NCBI GenBank assembly: GCA_043808015.1
Contig: JAZDFI010000034.1
Coordinates: 1 to 48,783, forward strand
Source: Candidatus Aenigmatarchaeota archaeon
Lineage (GTDB): Archaea; Aenigmatarchaeota; Aenigmatarchaeia; QMZP01; QMZT01
DNA: 48,783 nt
Direction: 5' to 3'
The notes beneath the pieces were generated by a model. The model was not told the DNA's origin. It saw only the letters and a program-made list of their open reading frames with translations, and did no database searches. Positions 21,401 to 41,942 of this stretch are shown in pieces (position 1 is the stretch's first letter; each line of letters opens with the position of its first letter). The position numbers and the translations under genes are program-made.

Positions 21401-28819
<7,419 letters not shown>

Positions 28820-28863
28820 ACCGGATTCGATACGGCAGTGAAAACGGGAGTGAGTGTGTTGGA

Positions 28864-29280
28864 ATGAAGGGTATTTCACCGCTGGTAGCCACCATAATGC
28901 TGATAGCCTTCGCTCTTGCGGTTTCCGGCATGCTTTTCTCGTGGGTTTATCAGTTCACATATTCGCAGAGAGAGGAATTGCAGATATGCTCCTCGGCGCA
29001 GATATCGCTTAACAAGGCATATTACAACCCGGAAACGGGCAACATCAACATGGTCGTTTATAATACAGGCGGCGTGCCGCTGACGGGATTTGCCGTGCTC
29101 ATATCGACTGACAAAACCGCTGAGACGTCCAGGGAATTCGCTGCGAAAGAGGTCGCAGTGAACGACATAGGCCTTTTCCCGGTGAAGTACGTCGAGGGCG
29201 TCCGCTCGATAGTCGTGCAGTCCACCCAGTGCAGGAACGCGCAGGACATGATAAGCATATATGACGTAGAGGGACTGTGA
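28864..29280 (+). CDS. archaeal type IV pilin-like protein (class III signal peptide)
   Basis: MKG|ISPLVATIMLIAFALAVSGML prepilin motif; YNTG in globular domain. Confidence 0.9.
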   Translation: MKGISPLVATIMLIAFALAVSGMLFSWVYQFTYSQREELQICSSAQISLNKAYYNPETGNINMVVYNTGGVPLTGFAVLISTDKTAETSREFAAKEVAVNDIGLFPVKYVEGVRSIVVQSTQCRNAQDMISIYDVEGL

Positions 29281-29329: not shown

Positions 29330-31237
29330 ATGTGTAAAACTAAAAACAGGGCAGTGTCAGCAGTTTTTCTTGTTTTAATATCATGCGTTTTAATCTTCAT
29401 AAGTTTTTCATCAGTCCAGGCGGCTGTCGCGGTTAAAGTCGAAAAAGCATGGGACTGCTCCAGCGGCTTCTCGTGCAGAAGCGATACGCTTGGCCTGTGC
29501 ACATCGACGCTTAAGCCATATCTTAAAATGTTCAACAACCAGTATTCCTTCACTCTCCCAGTCGACAAGCCCGCTGCATACAAGTGCACGATAACGGCCA
29601 CCGCGAACCACTTCGACTTCCCGGAAGGGAAGACGGACGAGCCTAACGAAGTCACGGACGTCTCGTTAAACGGCAACAAAATCGGTTCGACCACGGACAG
29701 CTGGTGCCAGCCGGGCAGCGTGCCTTGCGTCAACCCGGATGTGTGCACGACATGCCTGTCATACGGATGCACGCAGAGTTACAATGGGGACTGCCCTAAT
29801 GGCTGTTCTTGTGGATGCAGATATACCGGCCAGGCGGATGGTGCCATTAAAGGCGGAGGGATTGCCCTCGGCGGGCAGACTAAAGTTTGTTTCACAATAA
29901 ATGAGGCGCTGGCAACCAGCAACGACGACAAGCCCGTGGTGTTTGGCTTTTACAACCCGAACAGCAGGCAATGGGTACAGATACGGCACAGGGGCGGACC
30001 AAAAACACTTGAGACAAGGGCCGGCTTCTGCTTTGGCTGCGACTGCACCAACTGGTGCGGAGTAGAGACTAGTCAAGGTGATCCTGCCGGCGTCGCGGGC
30101 ACGGTTTACGAGATTGCATACGCGAAAGGCGGATTTACTGTTACTTTTGGTCCTGCCGGAGGAAACAAGATAACTTTGAGCGCCGACTCGACCGTTAAAA
30201 GCCTTTATCCGGGAGGCTTCGATTTCACATATTACTGCATACCGGGAACCGCAGGATGCGTCTGGCGCCATCCCTACCCTTACGCGCCGGCTGGGACGGT
30301 AACGATAGTCGACTGCGGCGGCGGCACGACATGCGACAACGACGGCATATGCGAAGCTGGTGAAACTGTTGCTAATTGCCCGAACGATTGCACTGGTGGT
30401 TGCTTCCCTGCTGGAACGTCGATAAAGATGGCCGACGGGTCGTCTAAGGGCATAGAGGACGTGAAAAAAGGGGACATGGTGCTTTCTTTCCAAAATGAAA
30501 AGATTGTTTCGAGCAAAGTTGCTGAGGCCTACGCGCCCATTAAAGATTACGTTTATCTCATAAAAACAGGGACCAGCGACGTGAAGGCGACTGGCGAACA
30601 TCCTTTCTACACGGGCAAAGGCGTTTTCATCACCGCGGACGATTTGAAAGTTGGCGACGTTATCTACGTCCTGAAAAACGGAGCGTTATCGCCTGAAAAA
30701 ATCACGTCAAAGGAGCTGCTCATGGAGCCGGTTGACGTTTACAACCTGAAAATCGAAGGGACTGAAACGTTCTTCGCGGACCAGTTTGCAGTCCACAACA
30801 AAAATCCCGACTGCTTCCTTCCAGGCACCAAGATACTCATGGCCGACGGCAGCGAAAAGAACATAGAGGACATAAAATTCGGTGACGTGGTGATGTCATT
30901 CGAGGATGAGAAGCTCATTCCAAGACCCGTGAACAAGATTTTCCCGACTTCGAAGGACAATTACATATTGCTTAAGACGGAAAACCATGAAGCGAAAGTC
31001 AGGGGGACCCACAAGTTTTACGTGGGCAACGGCGTTTTCAAAAGGCTAAACGACATTGTCGTTGGCGACGTCATTTACGTTCTTGAGAACAGCAAACTTG
31101 TTCCGGAAAAAGTCATATCAAAAGAACTGAAAAAGGAAGCTGTTGATGTGTATAATTTCGAGGTGGCGGGCTCGCACACTTATATTGCAAACGGATTTGC
31201 AGTGCACAATATAAAAGTTGATCCGAATCCGATATAA
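29330..31237 (+). CDS. secreted Cys-rich paralog A with two tandem C-terminal Hint domains
   Basis: Signal peptide; shared FDFPEGK...NEVTDVSLNG...DSWC module; CFPAGT...VHN and CFLPGT...VHN. Confidence 0.88.
   Translation: MCKTKNRAVSAVFLVLISCVLIFISFSSVQAAVAVKVEKAWDCSSGFSCRSDTLGLCTSTLKPYLKMFNNQYSFTLPVDKPAAYKCTITATANHFDFPEGKTDEPNEVTDVSLNGNKIGSTTDSWCQPGSVPCVNPDVCTTCLSYGCTQSYNGDCPNGCSCGCRYTGQADGAIKGGGIALGGQTKVCFTINEALATSNDDKPVVFGFYNPNSRQWVQIRHRGGPKTLETRAGFCFGCDCTNWCGVETSQGDPAGVAGTVYEIAYAKGGFTVTFGPAGGNKITLSADSTVKSLYPGGFDFTYYCIPGTAGCVWRHPYPYAPAGTVTIVDCGGGTTCDNDGICEAGETVANCPNDCTGGCFPAGTSIKMADGSSKGIEDVKKGDMVLSFQNEKIVSSKVAEAYAPIKDYVYLIKTGTSDVKATGEHPFYTGKGVFITADDLKVGDVIYVLKNGALSPEKITSKELLMEPVDVYNLKIEGTETFFADQFAVHNKNPDCFLPGTKILMADGSEKNIEDIKFGDVVMSFEDEKLIPRPVNKIFPTSKDNYILLKTENHEAKVRGTHKFYVGNGVFKRLNDIVVGDVIYVLENSKLVPEKVISKELKKEAVDVYNFEVAGSHTYIANGFAVHNIKVDPNPI
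29461..29728 (+). repeat. dispersed direct repeat, copy 1 (copy 2 at 37427-37694)
   Basis: Long exact stretches shared, e.g. TATCTTAAAATGTTCAACAACCAGTATTCCTTCACTCTCCCAGTCGACAAGCC. Confidence 0.9.
30401..31210 (+). other. tandem Hint (BIL/Hedgehog-like) domains, 30401-30799 and 30812-31210
   Basis: Each 133 aa: Cys1, block B His (TGEH; RGTH), DVYN, terminal His-Asn; KNPD linker; +1 residues K and I. Confidence 0.9.
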
Positions 31238-31284
31238 ATTTCATGTTGTCACATGCGTATGATATTGATTGGAGGTGTTGGAGA

Positions 31285-34701
<3,417 letters not shown>

Positions 34702-34730
34702 TCGCACAGGCGCGCGAGGGTTTGAAAAGC

Positions 34731-36005
34731 ATGAAAAGGGATAGAGTCTTAACTTGGTCTTTCATTTTATTTACAGTTACGGCTGCAGCTTTGCTTGCAG
34801 CCGCACTAATGCCCGCGGATTCGATGGCTGCGAGCACAACAACCATAGCAAAGGACTGGACCTGCGCTAATGGCGGTTTCAACAACTGCTTCAAAACCGG
34901 GTGCATGTTAGAGAAACAACAGTCGATGGGCGGTAAGTCATATACCCTCGCTTTCGAAGCGCCCAAAACGGGCGACTACAAATGCGCGATAAAGGCGGTG
35001 GCCAATCAATTCGACTTCCCTGAAGGAAAAGCTGAAATCAACGAGGTAACTGACGTCTCGTTAAACGGCGTCAAGGTCGGCTCGACCACGGACAGCTGGT
35101 GTCCGCCCGGCGGCACAGTCACTCCACCAGAGCTTCCCAATCCGTGCGAAGAAGCTTACAAAAAAGACATGTATGCGTGCAACAAGGACGCTTTGGGTAT
35201 CGGTTGTTCATGGATTTATGACATGCCAGGGTGCGGAACGCTGGCAACCTGCCAGGGCGTGGCCGCTGAATGGCACTGCCACATGCGCGTGTGCAACTGG
35301 GTCAGCACCGCGACGCCCAGATGCAACGTTTTAAAATACGAGGGCACCGCCTGGGACAATCCCAAGTTATGCTCGCAGTACAACGGCAACGCAGCCACGT
35401 GCAACGACTACAACAAACACAAAGGCCTCGTCTGCTGCTACGACGCCGGTTCCGGAAAATGTTACGATGACCCATGTATGATTTGGTATCATACAAGGGT
35501 TTTGAAGATGTACGACCCATGGGTGGCCGGTGGCATGACTGCCCAGCAGGCGGAAGACGAGCTTGAGGCACACTGCGAAGGAGGCAGTGTACAGCAAAAC
35601 CCGACTTATTATGTGATGAAACCCAGCGGATTGTGCCAGTGGGACAGCGGCTGGGATAAAGCTACCGCCAAATTCGCATTCCCATGCAGATGCAGCACGA
35701 ACTTCGCCGGCACCGGCAGGAATATTTATCTGGACAGAAGCGGCAGCCCGAGCTGCAAAGCTACCGGACAAACATGTACAATCAATACCGAATGCTGCTC
35801 GAACATATGCACTGGCGGCAAATGCCAAAGTGACGGCTCCATATGCAAAGTAGTAGGGCAAACCTGTTCGGGCAACAGCGAATGCTGTTCAGACATATGC
35901 ACCAACGGTATATGCCAAAGCACACCTTGTGAAATACCTTGCGGCATCAGATGTTGTTCGGATGGTCAAGAATGCATAAATGATAAATGTGTATGGCAAG
36001 ATTAA
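34731..36005 (+). CDS. secreted Cys-rich paralog B with C-terminal knottin-like repeats
   Basis: Signal peptide; shared N-module; 2 x C-x6-C-x5-CC-x3-C-x4-C; no TM anchor. Confidence 0.82.
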   Translation: MKRDRVLTWSFILFTVTAAALLAAALMPADSMAASTTTIAKDWTCANGGFNNCFKTGCMLEKQQSMGGKSYTLAFEAPKTGDYKCAIKAVANQFDFPEGKAEINEVTDVSLNGVKVGSTTDSWCPPGGTVTPPELPNPCEEAYKKDMYACNKDALGIGCSWIYDMPGCGTLATCQGVAAEWHCHMRVCNWVSTATPRCNVLKYEGTAWDNPKLCSQYNGNAATCNDYNKHKGLVCCYDAGSGKCYDDPCMIWYHTRVLKMYDPWVAGGMTAQQAEDELEAHCEGGSVQQNPTYYVMKPSGLCQWDSGWDKATAKFAFPCRCSTNFAGTGRNIYLDRSGSPSCKATGQTCTINTECCSNICTGGKCQSDGSICKVVGQTCSGNSECCSDICTNGICQSTPCEIPCGIRCCSDGQECINDKCVWQD

Positions 36006-36019
36006 AATGTCGTGTTGAT

Positions 36020-37270
36020 ATGAAAAATAAAATAAATTCAGCAATACTGATAGCGTTTTTAATGATGTTCACTAGCATCAGCGTAGTTTATATTTCATGC
36101 ACAGCCTCCGCAGCCCAGTCCACGGTCACGATAGATAAAACCTTCACCTGTTCGGACGGCTTCAGCTCGGGCTGCTTCAAGACCGGTTGTATGGCAGAGA
36201 AACAGCTCAAGATGAGCAACAACCAGTATACCCTAGCGTTCGCCGCACCAAAAACAGGTGATTACAAGTGCACGATTAAAGCCGTGGCCAATTACTTCAA
36301 CTTTCCTGAAGGAAAAGCTGAAACCAACGAGGTGACGGACGTAAAGCTCAACGGCGTCAAGGTCGGTTCGACCAAGGATGAATGGTGCCCGCCCGGCGGG
36401 ACCACGAAACCTCCAACCGGATGCGACCTGAATTTGGAATGCTGCGAAACGAGGGCGACACCATGTGATTGTAACATTTTCCCTGAACCTAGCTGCAGCA
36501 ACGAGTGCAAACTGGATGATCCGAGCTGTCCTTGCGCAAAACCATACCTTCTCTGCGACGACGACCCGACGAATTTGAAATTGATGATAAGCATGGGAAA
36601 AGAAATGACAATGAGCCTCGAGAAATGCAAGCCGGGTGCCGTGGCTTTTGTAAGGGAAGGCGGCTTCAAACCCCGCTGCCAGAACTGGCAGTTCAGCACG
36701 ACGACCGTGAAAAGCAAAGGCGGGCAGGATGTCCGCTGTCCTGTATCCGCTACCATAACCGGCGGCAAGCTGATAGCGACGTACGATTGCAGCATAACGC
36801 GCAATTACAACATCAAGCTGGATTTCCTTACAGTCGGTAAGAGTTATACCTTGGGCGTCTGGTCGTCATCGACAAGCGCCGCGAGCTGGAGCACCATCAA
36901 CGCCTGCGCCACGGGATTCGCGCCTTATTATGCTGAAACAAAAGCCGACAAGGGCGACGGCTTATGCATTGGCGGCGGACCGCCGCCGGCCAACTGCGGC
37001 AACGGAGTGATAAACCCACCCGAGGAGTGCGATTGTCAAATATTGGGCGGAGAGAAAATATGCAACATGAACGGCAAGACTGATTGCTTATCACTAAACG
37101 TGGGCTACGTTTCAGGAATCCTTAAATGTACAAGTACCTGCACTTTCGATAAAAGCGAATGCAAAATATGCGGACCGGGTGAAACTCTTTGTGTGGACAA
37201 ATGCTGCCCCGTTGGTTCCACTTGTGACATTCCGACCCACACGTGCAGCAATGAGAAACTGCCGAATTAA
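36020..37270 (+). CDS. secreted Cys-rich paralog C
   Basis: Signal peptide; shared N-module; CGNGVINPPEECD (myxobacterial-type Cys-rich repeat) near the C-terminus; no TM anchor. Confidence 0.82.
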   Translation: MKNKINSAILIAFLMMFTSISVVYISCTASAAQSTVTIDKTFTCSDGFSSGCFKTGCMAEKQLKMSNNQYTLAFAAPKTGDYKCTIKAVANYFNFPEGKAETNEVTDVKLNGVKVGSTKDEWCPPGGTTKPPTGCDLNLECCETRATPCDCNIFPEPSCSNECKLDDPSCPCAKPYLLCDDDPTNLKLMISMGKEMTMSLEKCKPGAVAFVREGGFKPRCQNWQFSTTTVKSKGGQDVRCPVSATITGGKLIATYDCSITRNYNIKLDFLTVGKSYTLGVWSSSTSAASWSTINACATGFAPYYAETKADKGDGLCIGGGPPPANCGNGVINPPEECDCQILGGEKICNMNGKTDCLSLNVGYVSGILKCTSTCTFDKSECKICGPGETLCVDKCCPVGSTCDIPTHTCSNEKLPN

Positions 37271-37295
37271 GGCGTCAGGAAGCTATGATGATATT

Positions 37296-38711
37296 ATGAA
37301 AAATAAAACCGCTTTTGATATTTTGGCAGTTTTTACGCTATTGTTCGTTTCTGTAACTCTTGTTTACGGTTCAGGCACGGCCTCCGCCCAGTCCACGGTC
37401 ACTATAGATAAAACCTTCGCATGCGGCAGCGGCTTCTCGTGCAGAAGCGATACGCTTGGCCTGTGCCAGTCGACGCTCCAGCCTTATCTTAAAATGTTCA
37501 ACAACCAGTATTCCTTCACTCTCCCAGTCGACAAGCCGGGCGACTACAAGTGCACGGTCAAAGTCACCGCGAACCACTTCGACTTCCCGGAAGGGAAGAC
37601 GGACGAGCCTAACGAAGTCACGGACGTCTCGCTGAACGGCGTCAAGGTCGGTTCGACCACGGACAGCTGGTGTCTGCCCGGAAGCGTGCCATGCACCAAG
37701 CCAAAAATATGCAGCGAGAAATGTCTTTCTGTGGGATGCATTCAGGGCTACAAAGGCGACTGTCCTGACTGCTCATGCCCTTGCCGAGACACAGGCGAAG
37801 CAGGGGGAGCGTTCCTGGGCGGTTCTGGAGCAAAAGTTTTCGCTTTCAACGGAAAGGTGTGCTTCAAAATATCCCAAAAATTAATTGACGATTATACGTG
37901 GCTGGACAAGGGAACTGTTATAGGAATCTATAATCCAGTTAACAGACAGACTATCCACGTAGTATACAGAGGCTGTTACAATACACCTATGTACAAGAAC
38001 AAAATAGAAATCGGGGCCGGCTTCTGCTTTGCCTGTTCCTGCACGAACTGGTGCGGCTTAGACAGCCCCGGCATATCATTTACCGGAAACGCGGATGCAA
38101 TTTATACAGTCGAAGCGGCAAATGGCAGCTATAGCGTGACTGCCAGGATGAAAATGCCCAACGTGGCCGAAAAAATTCAAAAACTTTTTGTCACCAGCAG
38201 CGATAAAAATAATCTCAAGAGCCTCTACCCTTCCGGTTTTAATCTCAACAAATATTGCCTGAACTGCTGCTCACAACACGCCACTCCCGTATGTGAGGGC
38301 GGTACGGGCGGTTACATGAAATTACCCTCTTCATTGGTTACTATAATCCCCTGCGATAGCTCTGCCTGCAAAACTGTAGGGGAAACCTGTTCAGGCAACA
38401 GCGACTGCTGTTCGGGTCAATGTATTGCAAGTATACCACCTGTGTGTGTTTCCGCCCCGAGCTGCAAAGCTGCAGGAGAAACCTGCTCACTCGGTAACGA
38501 ATGCTGTTCAGGCTTATCATGCACTGGCGGCAAATGTCAAAGCACTCCAAGTTGCAAAACTGCAGGTCAAACATGCTCCAGCGGCAGTGAATGCTGCTCC
38601 GAATTTTGTTCAGAAGCGGGCATATGCAAGGACTGCGACGAGCCATGCGGCATGAGATGCTGCGCGCCGGGAAGAATCTGTGTCAATAATCTGTGCCAGA
38701 TTGGTGAATGA
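37296..38711 (+). CDS. secreted Cys-rich paralog D with C-terminal knottin-like repeats
   Basis: Signal peptide; N-module and middle domain shared with paralog A; 3 x C-C-CC-C-C repeats. Confidence 0.82.
   Translation: MKNKTAFDILAVFTLLFVSVTLVYGSGTASAQSTVTIDKTFACGSGFSCRSDTLGLCQSTLQPYLKMFNNQYSFTLPVDKPGDYKCTVKVTANHFDFPEGKTDEPNEVTDVSLNGVKVGSTTDSWCLPGSVPCTKPKICSEKCLSVGCIQGYKGDCPDCSCPCRDTGEAGGAFLGGSGAKVFAFNGKVCFKISQKLIDDYTWLDKGTVIGIYNPVNRQTIHVVYRGCYNTPMYKNKIEIGAGFCFACSCTNWCGLDSPGISFTGNADAIYTVEAANGSYSVTARMKMPNVAEKIQKLFVTSSDKNNLKSLYPSGFNLNKYCLNCCSQHATPVCEGGTGGYMKLPSSLVTIIPCDSSACKTVGETCSGNSDCCSGQCIASIPPVCVSAPSCKAAGETCSLGNECCSGLSCTGGKCQSTPSCKTAGQTCSSGSECCSEFCSEAGICKDCDEPCGMRCCAPGRICVNNLCQIGE
37427..37694 (+). 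repeat. dispersed direct repeat, copy 2
   Basis: Colinear with 29461-29728. Confidence 0.9.
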
Positions 38712-39371: not shown

Positions 39372-41015
39372 ATGAAGAGAAAAACCACGGCAAAAAGGCC
39401 TAGGCCAGAAGCGCTGGCGAACGCTTCCAGCGGATACGCGGAAGAGCTTCCCCACAAGACGTCGTCAATATGCCCGGAGTGCCTTAAAATCCTGCCGGCG
39501 CTCGTTTTCGAAGAGGACGGCAAGGTCTGGATAGAGAAGACTTGTCCAAAACACGGCAAGTTCCGCGAGATATACTGGAGCTCAGCCGAGATGTACAGGA
39601 AGTCGATGAAATTCGCTTACGACGGGCATTCCATGGAGAATCCCAACGTGACGAAAGCGAATCCGACGTGCCCCAAAGACTGCGGCATCTGTTCGCTTCA
39701 TAAATCGCAGACGGCGCTGGCCAACCTCGTTGTCACGAACCGCTGCGACCTCAACTGCTGGTACTGCTTCTTCTTCGCGCAGAAGGCCGGCTATGTTTAC
39801 GAACCGTCTTTGGATGACCTGAGAAAGGCCGTGAAGCTCATGACGCAGCAGAAGCCCGTACCAGGGAACGCGGTGCAGCTTACCGGAGGCAATCCCGAGC
39901 TAAGGGAGGATATACTGGATATCATAAAGATGATAAGCGACGAGGGCGTCGATCACATCCAGCTCAACATGAACGGCACGCACAAGTTCTGGAACGACCC
40001 GGAATGGACCATGAAGGTTAGGGAAGCGGGCGTTAATACCGTTTACCTGTCGTTCGACGGCGTCACACCCAAGAGCAACCCGAAGAACCATTACGAAGTC
40101 CCGAACATGCTTCAGAATTCGAGAAAAGCCGGCATGGGCATAATTCTCGTCCCCACCATAATCAAATCCGTCAACGACAACGAAGTCGGCGACATACTGC
40201 GCTTCGGCTTCAAAAATATGGACGTCGTGCGCGGCGTCAACTACCAGCCGGTCTCGCTGGTCGGCCGCATGCCGCGAAAAGAGAGGGAAAAGTTCAGGAT
40301 AACCATACCGGACGTCATACAGAATATAGAGGAGCAGACGGACGGCCAGATAAGCAAGGATGACTTCTACCCGGTCCCGACCGTGAAGGCGATAACCGAT
40401 TTCGTCCAGGCGCTTACCAAAAAGCCGCAATATTCGCTATCGACGCACTTTGCCTGCGGCATGGCCACATACGTGTTCGAGCACGATGGCAGGATGCTGC
40501 CCATCACACGATTCGTCGACGTCGAAGGACTGCTGGAATACATAGAAGGGCAGGCGGACGAGCTGAACAAGGGAAGGAACAAGTACATCATCAGTGCCAA
40601 GATGCTGTTCAAGATGAATTCGTTCATCGACGGCAAGCGCGCGCCTAAAGGCTTCTCGCTCGGCAACATGCTATACAATGCGCTGATGAAGCACGACTAT
40701 CGCGCGCTCGGCGCTTTCCACCACAAATCGCTTTTCATCGGCATGATGCACTTCATGGATTTGATGAACTACGACATAGAAAGGGTAAAGAGATGTTGTA
40801 TTCATTATTTGACACCCGAAGCGGTGATACCTTTCTGTGCGTTTAATGTTATACCGGAGATGTACAGAGACAAAGTTCAGAATAAATATGCTATTTCTTT
40901 TAAAGAATGGGAAAAAATGACAGGCAAAACTCTTAAAAATGATTTATACAAAAGAGATATTGAAAAAATTAAAAATACGGACTTGTACAGGAAAACCTAC
41001 GAAGGTTTCTTGTAA
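39372..41015 (+). CDS. tes: radical SAM tetraether lipid synthase (MJ0619/Tes/GDGT-MAS family)
   Basis: N-terminal CPEC...CPKHG, CPKDCGICSLH, TNRCDLNCWYCF, HFACG, C-terminal RCCIHY...IPFCAFN. Confidence 0.88.
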   Translation: MKRKTTAKRPRPEALANASSGYAEELPHKTSSICPECLKILPALVFEEDGKVWIEKTCPKHGKFREIYWSSAEMYRKSMKFAYDGHSMENPNVTKANPTCPKDCGICSLHKSQTALANLVVTNRCDLNCWYCFFFAQKAGYVYEPSLDDLRKAVKLMTQQKPVPGNAVQLTGGNPELREDILDIIKMISDEGVDHIQLNMNGTHKFWNDPEWTMKVREAGVNTVYLSFDGVTPKSNPKNHYEVPNMLQNSRKAGMGIILVPTIIKSVNDNEVGDILRFGFKNMDVVRGVNYQPVSLVGRMPRKEREKFRITIPDVIQNIEEQTDGQISKDDFYPVPTVKAITDFVQALTKKPQYSLSTHFACGMATYVFEHDGRMLPITRFVDVEGLLEYIEGQADELNKGRNKYIISAKMLFKMNSFIDGKRAPKGFSLGNMLYNALMKHDYRALGAFHHKSLFIGMMHFMDLMNYDIERVKRCCIHYLTPEAVIPFCAFNVIPEMYRDKVQNKYAISFKEWEKMTGKTLKNDLYKRDIEKIKNTDLYRKTYEGFL

Positions 41016-41899
41016 GAATTTAGAATTTCTTCTAATTTTTCTGATCTCTTTGGATGTTTGAAATCGACAAGTCTTTGAAATTTTTCTATTTCATCTCTTC
41101 CTGTAATATTTATGTAATATATATCATTCTTATTTTTTATGACAGAGTTTCTTATTTCTAACTCTCTGAGAATCTCTGAAATACCTTCTGCCATTTTTCT
41201 ACTGGACGTGGCGTAGTTTACAATTCTGAGACCTTGTCTTTTAGTGTAAGCAACAGAACCATCCCCATCAAAACAACCACGCAAAAAGCATTTCTTGATC
41301 TCTATTGACGATTTTTTTATCTTTTCAGGCACTTCCACTATATCAAATTTTTTACCCTTTGGAATGCCTAATTCATGAAAAATAGTTGATATGGTTTTGT
41401 TTTTCACATAAACCTGCATTTCATTTTTTTGATATATATAAAAATTCTTATGGTTAAAAATTTTCTCTATATTTTCCATGAAAATTGATCTTAGATATTT
41501 TTGATTGTTTACAAATTCTACCCAAGCCAAGTTTTTGTCTATATGACCATCTGTTATTATCAATCCCATTAAATATGCTAGGTTCCCATCGATAGCGATG
41601 GGCAAACTTCTTTTAACAGGCAAACTTCCCTGCGCCGAGCCTATTCTAATGACTTTTACTTCTATCAATCGCGTGTCCATTTTAACACTCTCGTTTATTT
41701 TCAAAAGTGTTTTTACAGGTATCAAAAACTTACCGTTAAACCACCTGCTTACTGTGAATTGCCCTACTCCCAGATAACCAGCGAGCTTGTATTGACTACC
41801 AAAACTTACCAGTGCTTCGTCGAAAAACTCTTTTCTGAATTTTTCTTCAAGCCCGACAGAAAGTTCGCTAATTTCATATAAATTTAAGCAGTTTTCCAT
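40997..41899 (-). mobile_element. free-standing HTH + double-motif LAGLIDADG homing endonuclease gene
   Basis: LAYLMGLIITDG and FLRGCFDGDGS motifs; N-terminal HTH SQYKLAGYLGVGQFTVSRW; markedly AT-rich; no intein splicing motifs; stop codon overlaps tes. Confidence 0.85.
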
Positions 41900-41942
41900 G
41901 ATAATATATGCACTTTTAGGACATATAAACAATTTTTAGCAT

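What the first reader, a model, noticed from the sequence alone, without database searches (positions are those of the whole stretch)
29330..38711. Candidate split-domain 'interchangeable head on anchored stalk' surface system
Seen: four secreted, unanchored paralogs (A 29330, B 34731, C 36020, D 37296) start with the same ~90-aa module, e.g. YSFTLPV..YKCTI.A.AN.FDFPEGK..NEVTDV.LNG.K.GST.D.WC.PG. After WCxPG the payloads differ, except that A and D share theirs. The TM-anchored protein at 31285 begins right after its signal peptide with SEVCEVCSDVENTFTIDEVALGATNTITLKGYESHGLKSLSISC (31360-31500). Knowledge: jelly-roll/CBM-like sandwiches typically run '...V.xNG..IG...F..V.L..G.NTITL...', so the paralog module reads like the first half of one domain and the stalk N-terminus like the second half. 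Inference: the domain is split between polypeptides, so any of four variable heads could dock on the membrane stalk by strand complementation, perhaps locked by a WC-CEVC disulfide. This would be a modular host-attachment apparatus for a symbiotic archaeon. I do not recognise a described system like it.
Basis: partly seen in the sequence, partly recalled or inferred. Interest (0 to 1): 0.85.

Follow-up and report, generated by a model that had tools for sequence, protein, structure and literature searches.

The report
Split jelly-roll docking domain, archaeal surface
In a small symbiont-type archaeon, one sugar-binding-like surface domain appears to have been cut in two, with the last third left on the tip of a membrane stalk and the first two thirds placed on four different secreted proteins, which suggests that exchangeable heads plug into one anchor.

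Summary
Four signal-peptide proteins (A-D) share a ~100-aa N-module. The C-terminally anchored MopE-repeat stalk begins, right after its signal peptide, with a 43-aa CxxC...C segment, called SEG here.

Of 60 module-bearing cluster representatives, 12 (17 counting weak hits) carry module and SEG contiguously in one chain. Many of these sit at the tip of a MopE stalk. Profile comparison places the module on residues 39-133 and SEG on residues 139-183 of the natural fusion P0042.

The fusion folds confidently (pLDDT 84.8) and resembles CBM6/35/36 and C1q/TNF jelly rolls. The module-alone model matched nothing.

In 371 genomes of the phylum, strong SEG hits occur in 7, all of them among the 12 module-bearing genomes.

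The complex prediction gives weak support: 0.53 against 0.00 for the best control.

The domain fission is well supported. Docking of heads on the stalk, a disulfide lock and a role in host attachment are inferred, not shown. No description was found in print.

The parts
29330..31237 (+). Head A. It has a signal peptide, the N-module, a Cys-rich payload shared with D, and two C-terminal Hint/intein-like domains (about 30392-30781 and 30812-31216).
   Evidence: ORF. Pfam PT-HINT 1.6e-19 and Intein_splicing 1.9e-18. NCBIfam intein_Nterm 38.9 bits and intein_Cterm 30.9 bits.
29414..29728 (+). N-module of A, corresponding to the first two thirds of the ancestral jelly-roll domain, with 5 conserved Cys.
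   Evidence: First row of alignment A2. hhalign of A2 against the fused-only alignment A5 gives probability 99.4 and E 1.5e-21, aligned to P0042 residues 39-133.
31285..34701 (+). Stalk. It has a signal peptide, SEG, a Cys-rich insert, Ig/fn3-like region, MopE repeats, a C-terminal TM helix (about 34594-34662) and a short basic tail.
   Evidence: PF11617 E 1.5e-49, 14 stretches. Orthologues are in G002, G003 and G004.
31366..31494 (+). SEG: 43 aa running from EVCEVC to SLSISC at the mature N-terminus of the stalk. It corresponds to the last three strands of the ancestral jelly-roll domain and has 3 conserved Cys.
   Evidence: Alignment A3. hhalign of A3 against A5 gives probability 97.1 and E 6.5e-11, aligned to P0042 residues 139-183. 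It is the only SEG in the genome.
34698..36005 (+). Head B, with its module at 34821-35123. The first ATG overlaps the stalk stop codon (ATGA); the alternative start is 34731. It has an unknown Cys-rich payload and knottin-like C-terminal repeats.
   Evidence: The same payload type occurs in G001 and G002.
35987..37270 (+). Head C, with its module at 36107-36409 and its own payload type.
   Evidence: The orthologue in G003 sits directly after the stalk.
37296..38711 (+). Head D, with its module at 37380-37694. It has an A-type payload and B-like knottin repeats.
   Evidence: 82% module identity to A.
21401..29280 (+). Conserved upstream context: a giant 2472-aa TM-anchored MopE/LamG/DUF2341 protein (21401-28819) and a small type-IV-pilin-like protein (28861-29280).
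   Evidence: Pfam, NCBIfam UpsA-like 1.6e-8. The same gene order precedes heads in genera g1 and g6. No SEG-like segment was found in either protein.

Best explanation
The ancestor was a single ~145-aa jelly-roll beta-sandwich with 8 conserved Cys, carried at the tip of a Cys-rich MopE-repeat stalk that is anchored by a C-terminal TM helix. In this lineage of Aenigmatarchaeota the domain has been split in the loop between its fifth and sixth cysteines. The stalk keeps only the last three strands (SEG), exposed 2-5 residues after its signal-peptide cleavage site. The first seven strands (the module) now head several secreted proteins with different payloads, four of them in this window. Up to here the account rests on homology, fold prediction and genome distribution. 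The next steps are inferred. After Sec export, a head's incomplete module and the stalk's SEG assemble in trans into the complete jelly roll, probably fixed by at least one inter-chain disulfide. This would hang one of several exchangeable heads on the membrane stalk. In function this resembles dockerin-bearing enzymes on an anchored scaffoldin. In mechanism it resembles donor-strand complementation. What the heads do is unknown for the window's own payloads. Relatives carry GH5-like, rhamnogalacturonan-lyase-like, metallophosphatase, FG-GAP and PKD payloads, which points to display of enzymes or adhesins.
For: (1) A profile of the module found 67 proteins at E<=1e-3 among 1.84 billion cluster representatives, and 60 of them carry a module at >=20 bits. 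A profile built only from five stalk SEGs hits directly after the module in 12 of those 60 at 16-37 bits, and in 5 more at 5.6-14 bits. It hits none of the 4 window heads and none of the 32 'split' representatives. Controls: the best score among the other ORFs (580 locus ORFs searched in all) was 2.9 bits, and the best score on the reversed representatives was 4.3 bits. (2) hhalign against an alignment of fused proteins only (A5): the module maps to P0042 residues 39-133 (probability 99.4, E 1.5e-21) and SEG to residues 139-183 (probability 97.1, E 6.5e-11). The two halves abut without overlap. (3) AlphaFold2 of the natural fusion P0042 gave mean pLDDT 84.8, pTM 0.71, five models at 83.4-84.8, and blocks of 93-98 across the domain. 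Seven strands lie in the module part and three long strands (147-157, 160-167, 170-182) in the SEG part. Foldseek returned 55 PDB hits at E<=1e-3: CBM36 7ay3 (E 6.7e-5, TMt 0.54), CBM35, CBM6, BcsB, phage baseplate and tail-fibre domains, the BC2L-C lectin, and C1q/TNF. The module alone gave pLDDT 71.1, pTM 0.60 and 0 Foldseek hits at E<=0.001, best E 3.7. (4) Fused proteins are themselves stalk-like. MopE was found in 6 of the 10 scanned (5 above Pfam's cut-off), and a C-terminal hydrophobic tail in 7 of 17 by pattern. (5) Co-occurrence: among 371 genomes of the phylum the module is in 12. SEG at E<=1.6e-9 is in 7 genomes, all among those 12. The 4 other SEG hits have E>1e-3. Genus g6 stalks also begin with signal peptide + SEG, although they lie on other contigs than the heads. 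(6) Linkage: the stalk is flanked by heads in G000, G002 and G003. In G002, G004 and P0036 one open frame reads stalk, TM, short basic loop, signal peptide, module, payload. (7) The fused domain has 8 conserved Cys columns, and the total is even in 18 of 18 rows; 5 fall in the module and 3 in SEG. Mature split heads have an odd Cys count in 21 of 27 representatives, against 5 of 14 fused proteins (Fisher p 0.015, but kin are not independent). Stalks are odd in 5 of 6. (8) complex prediction, module alignment against SEG alignment: verdict 'weak support'. The score was 0.53 in each of three runs, and the best of 3 controls was 0.00. The tool's mark was reached by 58 of 80 solved complexes and 2 of 110 mismatched pairs, but scores of 0.60 or under were reached by only 7 of those 80 solved complexes and by both mismatches that passed. 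The runs agree in at least 85% of contacts and the partner's pLDDT is at least 67. Module pLDDT was 62 with SEG against 38-40 with unrelated partners, and SEG pLDDT was 67-68 against 38. The tool says such a pass is more often wrong than right unless the guess was likely beforehand; here points 1-3 made it likely. (9) SEG is at least as conserved as the rest of the stalk in 4 of 5 orthologue comparisons.
Against: There is no experiment and no expression data. The complex score falls in the tool's weak class, and no contacts were returned. Model coordinates could not be inspected, so the claims that SEG strands interleave with module strands and that a disulfide crosses the break rest on the fold class and on Cys counting, not on a seen contact. 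The module-alone model is mediocre rather than disordered (pLDDT 71), and its alignment differed from the one used for the fusion. Five of the 12 module-bearing genomes show no SEG: G001, G005, G016, G017 and G052, at 83-93% completeness. In G005 the stalk's N-terminus lies beyond a contig end. The window's own stalk has an even Cys count (98), and so does head D (48). The module is internal, after a GH5-like domain, in some relatives. The fused proteins are unnamed metagenome sequences of unknown taxonomy. The tree of the 107-column module is poorly resolved and unrooted (fewest changes 3), so 'fused is ancestral' is inferred from the fact that jelly rolls are normally single-chain.
Confidence: 0.65

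Rival explanations
1. Fission without reassembly. The tip domain decayed in the stalk, leaving SEG as a relic or a small independent element. The module was recruited as an autonomous N-terminal domain of free secreted proteins. In this reading heads and stalk do not bind.
For: The module alone still gets pLDDT 71 and pTM 0.60. Five of 12 module-bearing genomes have no detectable SEG. The complex score is only in the weak class. The window stalk and head D have even Cys counts.
Against: SEG keeps the residues conserved in the intact domain and is at least as conserved as the rest of the stalk in 4 of 5 comparisons. It stays at the mature N-terminus in two families, even where the genes are unlinked. 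Three strands of a jelly roll are unlikely to be stable or useful alone; this rests on general knowledge of the fold, not on a test here. Strong SEG hits occur only in module-bearing genomes, 7 of 7. Both halves gain confidence only when modelled together.
Confidence: 0.2
2. The module is completed by another partner: the head's own payload, the neighbouring pilin-like protein, or the giant MopE protein. The stalk's SEG would then serve something else, for example binding a host ligand.
For: In genus g6 the heads lie next to the giant protein and the pilin-like gene, not next to the stalk. There are 4 heads for 1 SEG in this genome.
Against: No SEG-like segment scores above 2.9 bits in any other ORF of the loci, including the giant and pilin-like proteins and the heads' payloads. 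Three payload types of different sequence follow the same module, so a common in-cis completion is unlikely.
Confidence: 0.1
3. The heads are polymorphic-toxin-like or otherwise exported effectors. In this reading the shared module is a trafficking or recognition domain and the Hint domain is a releasing device, with no relation to the stalk.
For: A PT-HINT match in head A (E 1.6e-19), and in relatives P0033 and P0039. The C-termini are variable.
Against: Nothing follows the Hint domains in A. Only 3 of the 14 heads scanned carry Hint. No toxin family was found. This reading does not explain the fused homologues or the SEG co-occurrence.
Confidence: 0.05

Closest known systems
Cohesin-dockerin display of enzymes on an anchored scaffoldin (cellulosome)
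   Same: In both, a cell-anchored stalk carries a docking element. Several secreted proteins with different catalytic or binding payloads share one docking module. Payloads in relatives include GH5-like and polysaccharide-lyase-like domains.
   Different: Cohesin and dockerin are two complete, unrelated domains. Here the two partners are fragments of one domain. No cohesin or dockerin family was found by Pfam. The comparison with cellulosomes is from my own knowledge, not from a call.
Donor-strand complementation in chaperone-usher pili and in archaeal threads and cannulae
   Same: An incomplete beta-sandwich on one polypeptide is completed by strands from another, outside the cell. This is known in archaea (titles and abstracts of PMC9715654 and PMC12518558, listings).
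   Different: Those systems donate one strand to an Ig-like fold and build homopolymeric filaments. Here three strands of a jelly roll would be supplied by a membrane stalk to any of several unrelated cargo proteins, with no polymer, and the arrangement arose by fission of a domain that is intact in relatives.
CBM6/CBM35/CBM36 carbohydrate-binding modules and C1q/TNF-like jelly rolls
   Same: They are the best structural matches of the intact (fused) domain: 7ay3 at E 6.7e-5 and TMt 0.54, plus 2wz8, 2w3j, 5fui, 2wq4 and 1pk6.
   Different: There is no sequence membership. No Pfam family covers the domain in 10 fused proteins or in the 4 heads, and there is no PDB sequence relative. Identity in the structural alignments is 6-17%. 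Sugar or calcium sites were not examined.
Split protein genes of DPANN archaea (Nanoarchaeum equitans)
   Same: A genome-reduced symbiont-type archaeon encodes one functional unit as two polypeptides. The abstract of PMC3655853 mentions multiple split genes.
   Different: To my knowledge those are one-to-one splits of cytoplasmic enzymes. Here one half is multiplied onto four different secreted proteins. A survey of archaeal fusion/fission families contains none of the words surface, extracellular or signal peptide (term search of PMC11237513; its supplements were not seen).
MopE-type Cys-rich repeat proteins (PF11617)
   Same: The stalk and the giant neighbour are built of these repeats (E 1.5e-49 and 2.1e-59).
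   Different: That family describes the repeat only. It says nothing about the tip domain or its fission.

Membership tests
PF11617 Cu-binding_MopE repeat proteins (stalk) | Repeated ~30-aa Cys/Asp-rich motif scoring above Pfam's gathering threshold | tested here: met
   166.3 bits against a cut-off of 27, in 14 stretches.
Hint / intein-like (BIL-type) domains (head A C-terminus) | N-terminal Cys-led block and C-terminal His-Asn block matching the intein splicing-region models | tested here: met
   PT-HINT 70.9 bits and Intein_splicing 67.2 bits. intein_Nterm 38.9 bits against a cut-off of 24.5, and intein_Cterm 30.9 bits against 15.6. Each of the two copies begins with CF and ends with VHN. 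Cleavage activity was not tested.
CBM6/35/36 carbohydrate-binding modules | Sequence membership in the family profiles | tested here: not met
   No Pfam family covers the domain in the 4 heads (E<=1) or in 10 fused proteins (E<=0.1).
CBM6/35/36 carbohydrate-binding modules | Single-chain beta-jelly-roll fold of about 120-140 aa | tested here: inconclusive
   The predicted model of the natural fusion matches at E 6.7e-5 to 9e-4 with TMt 0.4-0.54. It is a model rather than a structure, and the window's own proteins hold only fragments of the fold.
CBM6/35/36 carbohydrate-binding modules | Carbohydrate (and often Ca2+) binding site | not tested
   No coordinates were available, and no ligand prediction was run.
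Donor-strand complementation systems | An incomplete beta-sandwich in one chain, with the missing strands supplied by another chain | tested here: inconclusive
   Module and SEG map to adjacent parts of one predicted sandwich. The interface score was 0.53 against 0.00 for the best control, in the weak class. No structure or binding assay exists.
Donor-strand complementation systems | Self-polymerisation of subunits into a filament | tested here: not met
   Heads lack SEG, and the stalk lacks the module. No protein carries both an acceptor and a free donor.
Cohesin-dockerin | Cohesin and dockerin domains detectable by their profiles | tested here: not met
   Neither family appeared in the Pfam scans of heads, stalk, neighbours or relatives.
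Archaeal type IV pilin-like proteins (neighbour 28861-29280) | Class III signal peptide / archaellin-pilin N-terminal domain | tested here: inconclusive
   TIGR02537 scored 19.7 bits against a cut-off of 20. UpsA scored 34.8 bits against a cut-off of 130.

The most novel reading that the evidence does not exclude
A natural split-domain docking system. A jelly-roll lectin-like domain was cut into a membrane-anchored three-strand 'socket' and a seven-strand 'plug' that has spread onto many secreted enzymes and adhesins. The cell could then load exchangeable heads onto one stalk by fold complementation and fix them with an inter-chain disulfide. This would be a cellulosome-like display principle that arose by domain fission in genome-reduced DPANN archaea, and a natural counterpart of engineered split-domain ligation tags.
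Probability: 0.5. Interest if true: 0.9.

Novelty: new variant of a known kind. Interest (0 to 1): 0.8.

Why it matters
If the halves reassemble, this would be the first natural case I know of in which a fissioned beta-sandwich serves as a general docking device between an anchor and many cargo proteins. It would show how archaea with genomes under 1 Mb diversify their surface cheaply: one long stalk gene and several short head genes, gained by duplication and payload swapping. G003 has 2 heads and this genome has 4. It would also give a handle on DPANN cell-surface biology, where almost nothing has been tested. The pair might be usable as an orthogonal, disulfide-locking split tag. The prediction is cheap to test with two recombinant fragments.

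Tried and rejected
- Foldseek of the module-alone model gave 94 matches at E<=10 and none at E<=0.001, so it was uninformative.
- ESM Atlas searches with the payloads of D and B gave no usable feature hits. The Atlas's own models are poor (pLDDT 0.38 and 0.47) and the structural neighbours are all under TM 0.4. The payload folds remain unknown.
- Pfam and NCBIfam found no family for the module, SEG or the window's payloads. The only match was a conotoxin-like hit at E 0.028 in B's Cys-rich tail, which I take as noise.
- A PDB sequence search with the A4 profile gave 0 hits at E<=1.
- The search for related loci with alignment A2 failed because no stretch was conserved enough. Repeated with head C alone, it returned one locus, whose title gave the phylum. 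The taxonomy of the fused forms could therefore not be established.
- Sequencing runs: no RNA holder is listed.
- The search of earlier findings returned nothing for this place.
- Literature: 'DPANN' + 'MopE' gave 0 papers. The searches listed nothing on such a system. PMC11237513 (term search only) does not contain the words surface, extracellular or signal peptide.
- An assembly artefact was considered and rejected. The same split arrangement is present in independent assemblies G002, G003, G004, G009 and G014.
- SEG-like strands inside the heads, the giant protein or the pilin-like protein were considered and rejected. The maximum score there was 2.9 bits.
Natural fusions were used instead.


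Full report
WHAT IS IN THE WINDOW

The window is contig C34 of a 934-kb, 39-contig genome that is 90.7% complete. A close relative's record is titled Candidatus Aenigmatarchaeota, a DPANN phylum.

Between 21.4 and 38.7 kb, seven genes on the + strand encode exported proteins:
- a 2472-aa TM-anchored protein with MopE repeats, Laminin_G_3 and DUF2341;
- a 139-aa type-IV-pilin-like protein;
- head A;
- the 1138-aa stalk (from its likely start at 31285);
- heads B, C and D.

The four heads share a ~100-aa module directly after their leaders. These are the only four copies in the genome. The payloads fall into three types. A and D share one. B and D also end in similar Cys-rich repeats. A ends in two Hint/intein-like domains.

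The stalk has a leader, then NSEVCEVC...SLSISC (SEG, 43 aa), then Cys-rich, Ig/fn3-like and 14 MopE stretches, a TM helix and a short basic tail.

THE MODULE FAMILY IS RARE AND OCCURS IN TWO STATES

A profile of 22 modules (A2) found 67 proteins at E<=1e-3 among 1.84 billion cluster representatives. Sixty of them carry a module at >=20 bits.

A profile built only from five stalk SEGs of genus g1 (A3) was run over these proteins. The 60 module-bearing proteins divide as follows:
- 12 have SEG immediately after the module at 16-37 bits;
- 5 more have it there at 5.6-14 bits;
- 32 have no SEG, including all close relatives of the window's heads;
- 4 have SEG elsewhere in the same open frame;
- 7 end too soon after the module to be judged.

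P0064 looks fused by eye but scores under 5 bits, so it is counted among the 32.

Controls: the same profile scored at most 2.9 bits on the other ORFs (580 locus ORFs searched in all), which include the Cys-rich giant proteins. It scored at most 4.3 bits on the reversed proteins.

Profile-profile comparison against an alignment of fused proteins only (A5) puts the module on P0042 residues 39-133 (probability 99.4, E 1.5e-21). It puts SEG on residues 139-183 (probability 97.1, E 6.5e-11).

Many fused proteins are stalks themselves. MopE repeats follow the domain in 6 of the 10 scanned, 5 of them above Pfam's cut-off. Seven of 17 end in a hydrophobic tail by pattern (see also the alignment).

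FOLD

AlphaFold2 of the natural fusion P0042, with a 30-row alignment, gave mean pLDDT 84.8 and pTM 0.71. All five models scored 83.4-84.8, with blocks of 93-98 across the domain. Seven strands precede residue 127, and three long strands occupy 147-182, which is the SEG part.

Foldseek found 55 PDB matches at E<=1e-3. All are beta-jelly-roll sandwiches: CBM36, CBM35, CBM6, BcsB, phage baseplate and tail-fibre domains, the BC2L-C lectin, C1q/TNF and the exosporium proteins BxpB/ExsFA.

The module alone (22 rows) gave pLDDT 71.1 and pTM 0.60, with models ranging from 54.8 to 71.1 and only two DSSP strands. It had no Foldseek match better than E 3.7.

In jelly rolls the last strands lie inside both sheets. 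That is general knowledge of the fold, and I could not inspect the coordinates. So the statement that the module cannot close its core without SEG is an inference.

DISTRIBUTION AND LINKAGE

In 371 genomes of the phylum, the module occurs in 12: 9 of 22 relatives in family f1 plus the window's own genome, and 2 of 47 in family f5.

SEG at E<=1.6e-9 occurs in 7 genomes (G000, G002 twice, G003, G004, G009, G014, G333 twice). All 7 are among the 12 module-bearing genomes. Four other hits have E 1.5e-3 to 7e-3, two of them with in-frame stops, and lie in genomes without the module.

The five module-bearing genomes without SEG are 83-93% complete. In G005 a stalk C-terminus sits at a contig edge directly before a head.

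In genus g6 the stalks (L037, L038) again read signal peptide, SEG, Ig-like repeats, fn3, MopE and TM, but they lie on other contigs than the heads. So the split state is kept without gene adjacency.

In genus g1 the order giant, pilin-like, head, stalk, head(s) is conserved. In G002, G004 and P0036 a single open frame runs stalk, TM, basic loop, signal peptide, module, payload. This ties the stalk and one head together in synthesis. In the window, the stalk's stop codon overlaps B's first ATG.

SEG is at least as conserved as the remainder of the stalk in 4 of 5 orthologue comparisons (98/92, 67/54, 63/48 and 40/32%). It is less conserved in one (42/49%).

A tree of 59 modules (107 columns, poorly resolved, unrooted) needs at least 3 changes between fused and split states. 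The labels are clustered: 0 of 500 shuffles score as low.

CYSTEINES

The fused domain has eight conserved Cys columns. The Cys total within the domain is even in 18 of 18 rows. Five columns lie in the module and three in SEG. If all eight are paired, at least one disulfide must cross the break.

Consistent with this, mature split heads have an odd Cys count in 14 of 16 complete locus ORFs. Among representatives the count is odd in 21 of 27 split heads, against 5 of 14 fused proteins. Fisher p is 0.015, but the rows are related, so the test overstates. Stalk ectodomains are odd in 5 of 6.

Two results run against the simple picture: the window's own stalk has 98 Cys and head D has 48, both even.

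INTERFACE

Complex prediction was run with the module alignment and the SEG alignment. The verdict was weak support. The score was 0.53 in each of three runs, and the best of 3 controls was 0.00.

The tool's mark was reached by 58 of 80 solved complexes and 2 of 110 mismatched pairs. Scores of 0.60 or under were reached by only 7 of those 80 solved complexes and by both mismatches that passed. The runs agree in at least 85% of contacts, and the partner's pLDDT is at least 67.

Module pLDDT was 62 with SEG and 38-40 with unrelated partners. SEG pLDDT was 67-68 with the module and 38 with an unrelated chain. The tool warns that such a pass is more often wrong than right unless the pairing was likely beforehand. 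The fused homologues make it likely here. The pass may also partly reflect the model's familiarity with the whole fold.

READING

What homology, fold prediction and distribution support: an intact tip domain of MopE stalks has been split in the loop between Cys5 and Cys6. SEG stays on the stalk 2-5 residues after the leader's AXA-like site (judged by eye). The module now sits on multiple secreted proteins.

What is inferred: the halves reassemble outside the cell, with a disulfide lock, so that heads are displayed on the stalk.

The repertoire is dynamic. G003 has two heads (A-type and C-type) around its stalk, and the window has four. D's module is nearest A's, and B's is nearest C's. This indicates duplication with payload exchange.

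The window's payloads have no recognisable family. Relatives carry GH5-like, RGL11-lyase-like (E 8.5e-36), metallophosphatase, FG-GAP, PKD and Hint domains. A role in host attachment is possible but untested.

COMPARISON AND NOVELTY

In function the system resembles cohesin-dockerin display. In mechanism it resembles donor-strand complementation, which is known in archaeal threads and cannulae (listings and abstracts). In origin it resembles the split genes of Nanoarchaeota (abstract of PMC3655853).

It differs from all three. A three-strand fragment of a jelly roll on an anchor would accept many different cargo proteins.

I found no description of such a system. 'DPANN' + 'MopE' gave 0 papers. 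The searches listed nothing comparable. A survey of archaeal fusion/fission families contains none of the words surface, extracellular or signal peptide in its main text (term search; supplements not seen).

I rate it a new variant of a known kind (fold complementation in trans), with high interest. Confidence is 0.65 for the full mechanism and higher for the fission itself.

Noticed in passing
window 30392-31216 (+), C-terminus of head A: Two tandem Hint/intein-like domains end the protein with nothing downstream. The first follows 'GG' and starts 'CF', each ends in 'VHN', and the residue after the first is K. This would allow cleavage but not splicing. The G003 orthologue lacks them and has a small Cys-rich tail instead. 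Relatives P0033 and P0039 also carry a Hint domain after PKD domains. They might release the head or transfer it to another group. The likeness to hedgehog-type autoprocessing is recalled, not tested.
   Followed up: partly
L025 4778-8539 (G002), L027 6462-11744 (G004), P0036; L039 and L041 (G333): Single open frames read through from a TM-anchored protein into the signal peptide and module of the next head, with no stop codon. In G333 several heads, each with its own TM tail, are chained this way. The G333 assembly also holds runs of N near these genes, so parts of those long frames are uncertain.
   Followed up: partly
window 21401-29280 (+): A 2472-aa MopE/LamG/DUF2341 TM protein followed by a 139-aa UpsA-like pilin-type protein. 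The same pair precedes heads in genera g1 and g6. Its relation to the heads is unknown. The C-termini of the pilin-like proteins gave only noise-level SEG scores, at most 1.6 bits.
   Followed up: partly
window 39372-41015 (+): A radical-SAM protein matching tetraether lipid synthase Tes at 707.5 bits against a cut-off of 450 (Pfam). This suggests the small genome makes its own membrane-spanning lipids. It is conserved next to the head cluster in G002, G003, G004 and G005.
   Followed up: no
window 40997-41932 (-): A free-standing LAGLIDADG endonuclease-like ORF with an N-terminal HTH. It overlaps the end of the Tes gene by 19 bases and is also present in G003.
   Followed up: no
window about 35730-36002 (B) and about 38330-38708 (D): Repeated small Cys-rich units of the pattern CK..G.TC....ECCS..C..G.CQ end heads B and D. 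The only family hint is a conotoxin I-superfamily match at E 0.028, below its cut-off.
   Followed up: no
window 34698-34733 and L022 15035-15080 (G003): The leader peptide of the window's head B is nearly identical to that of G003's C-type head, which sits directly after that genome's stalk. The leader-plus-module region may therefore be the unit that recombines between heads.
   Followed up: no
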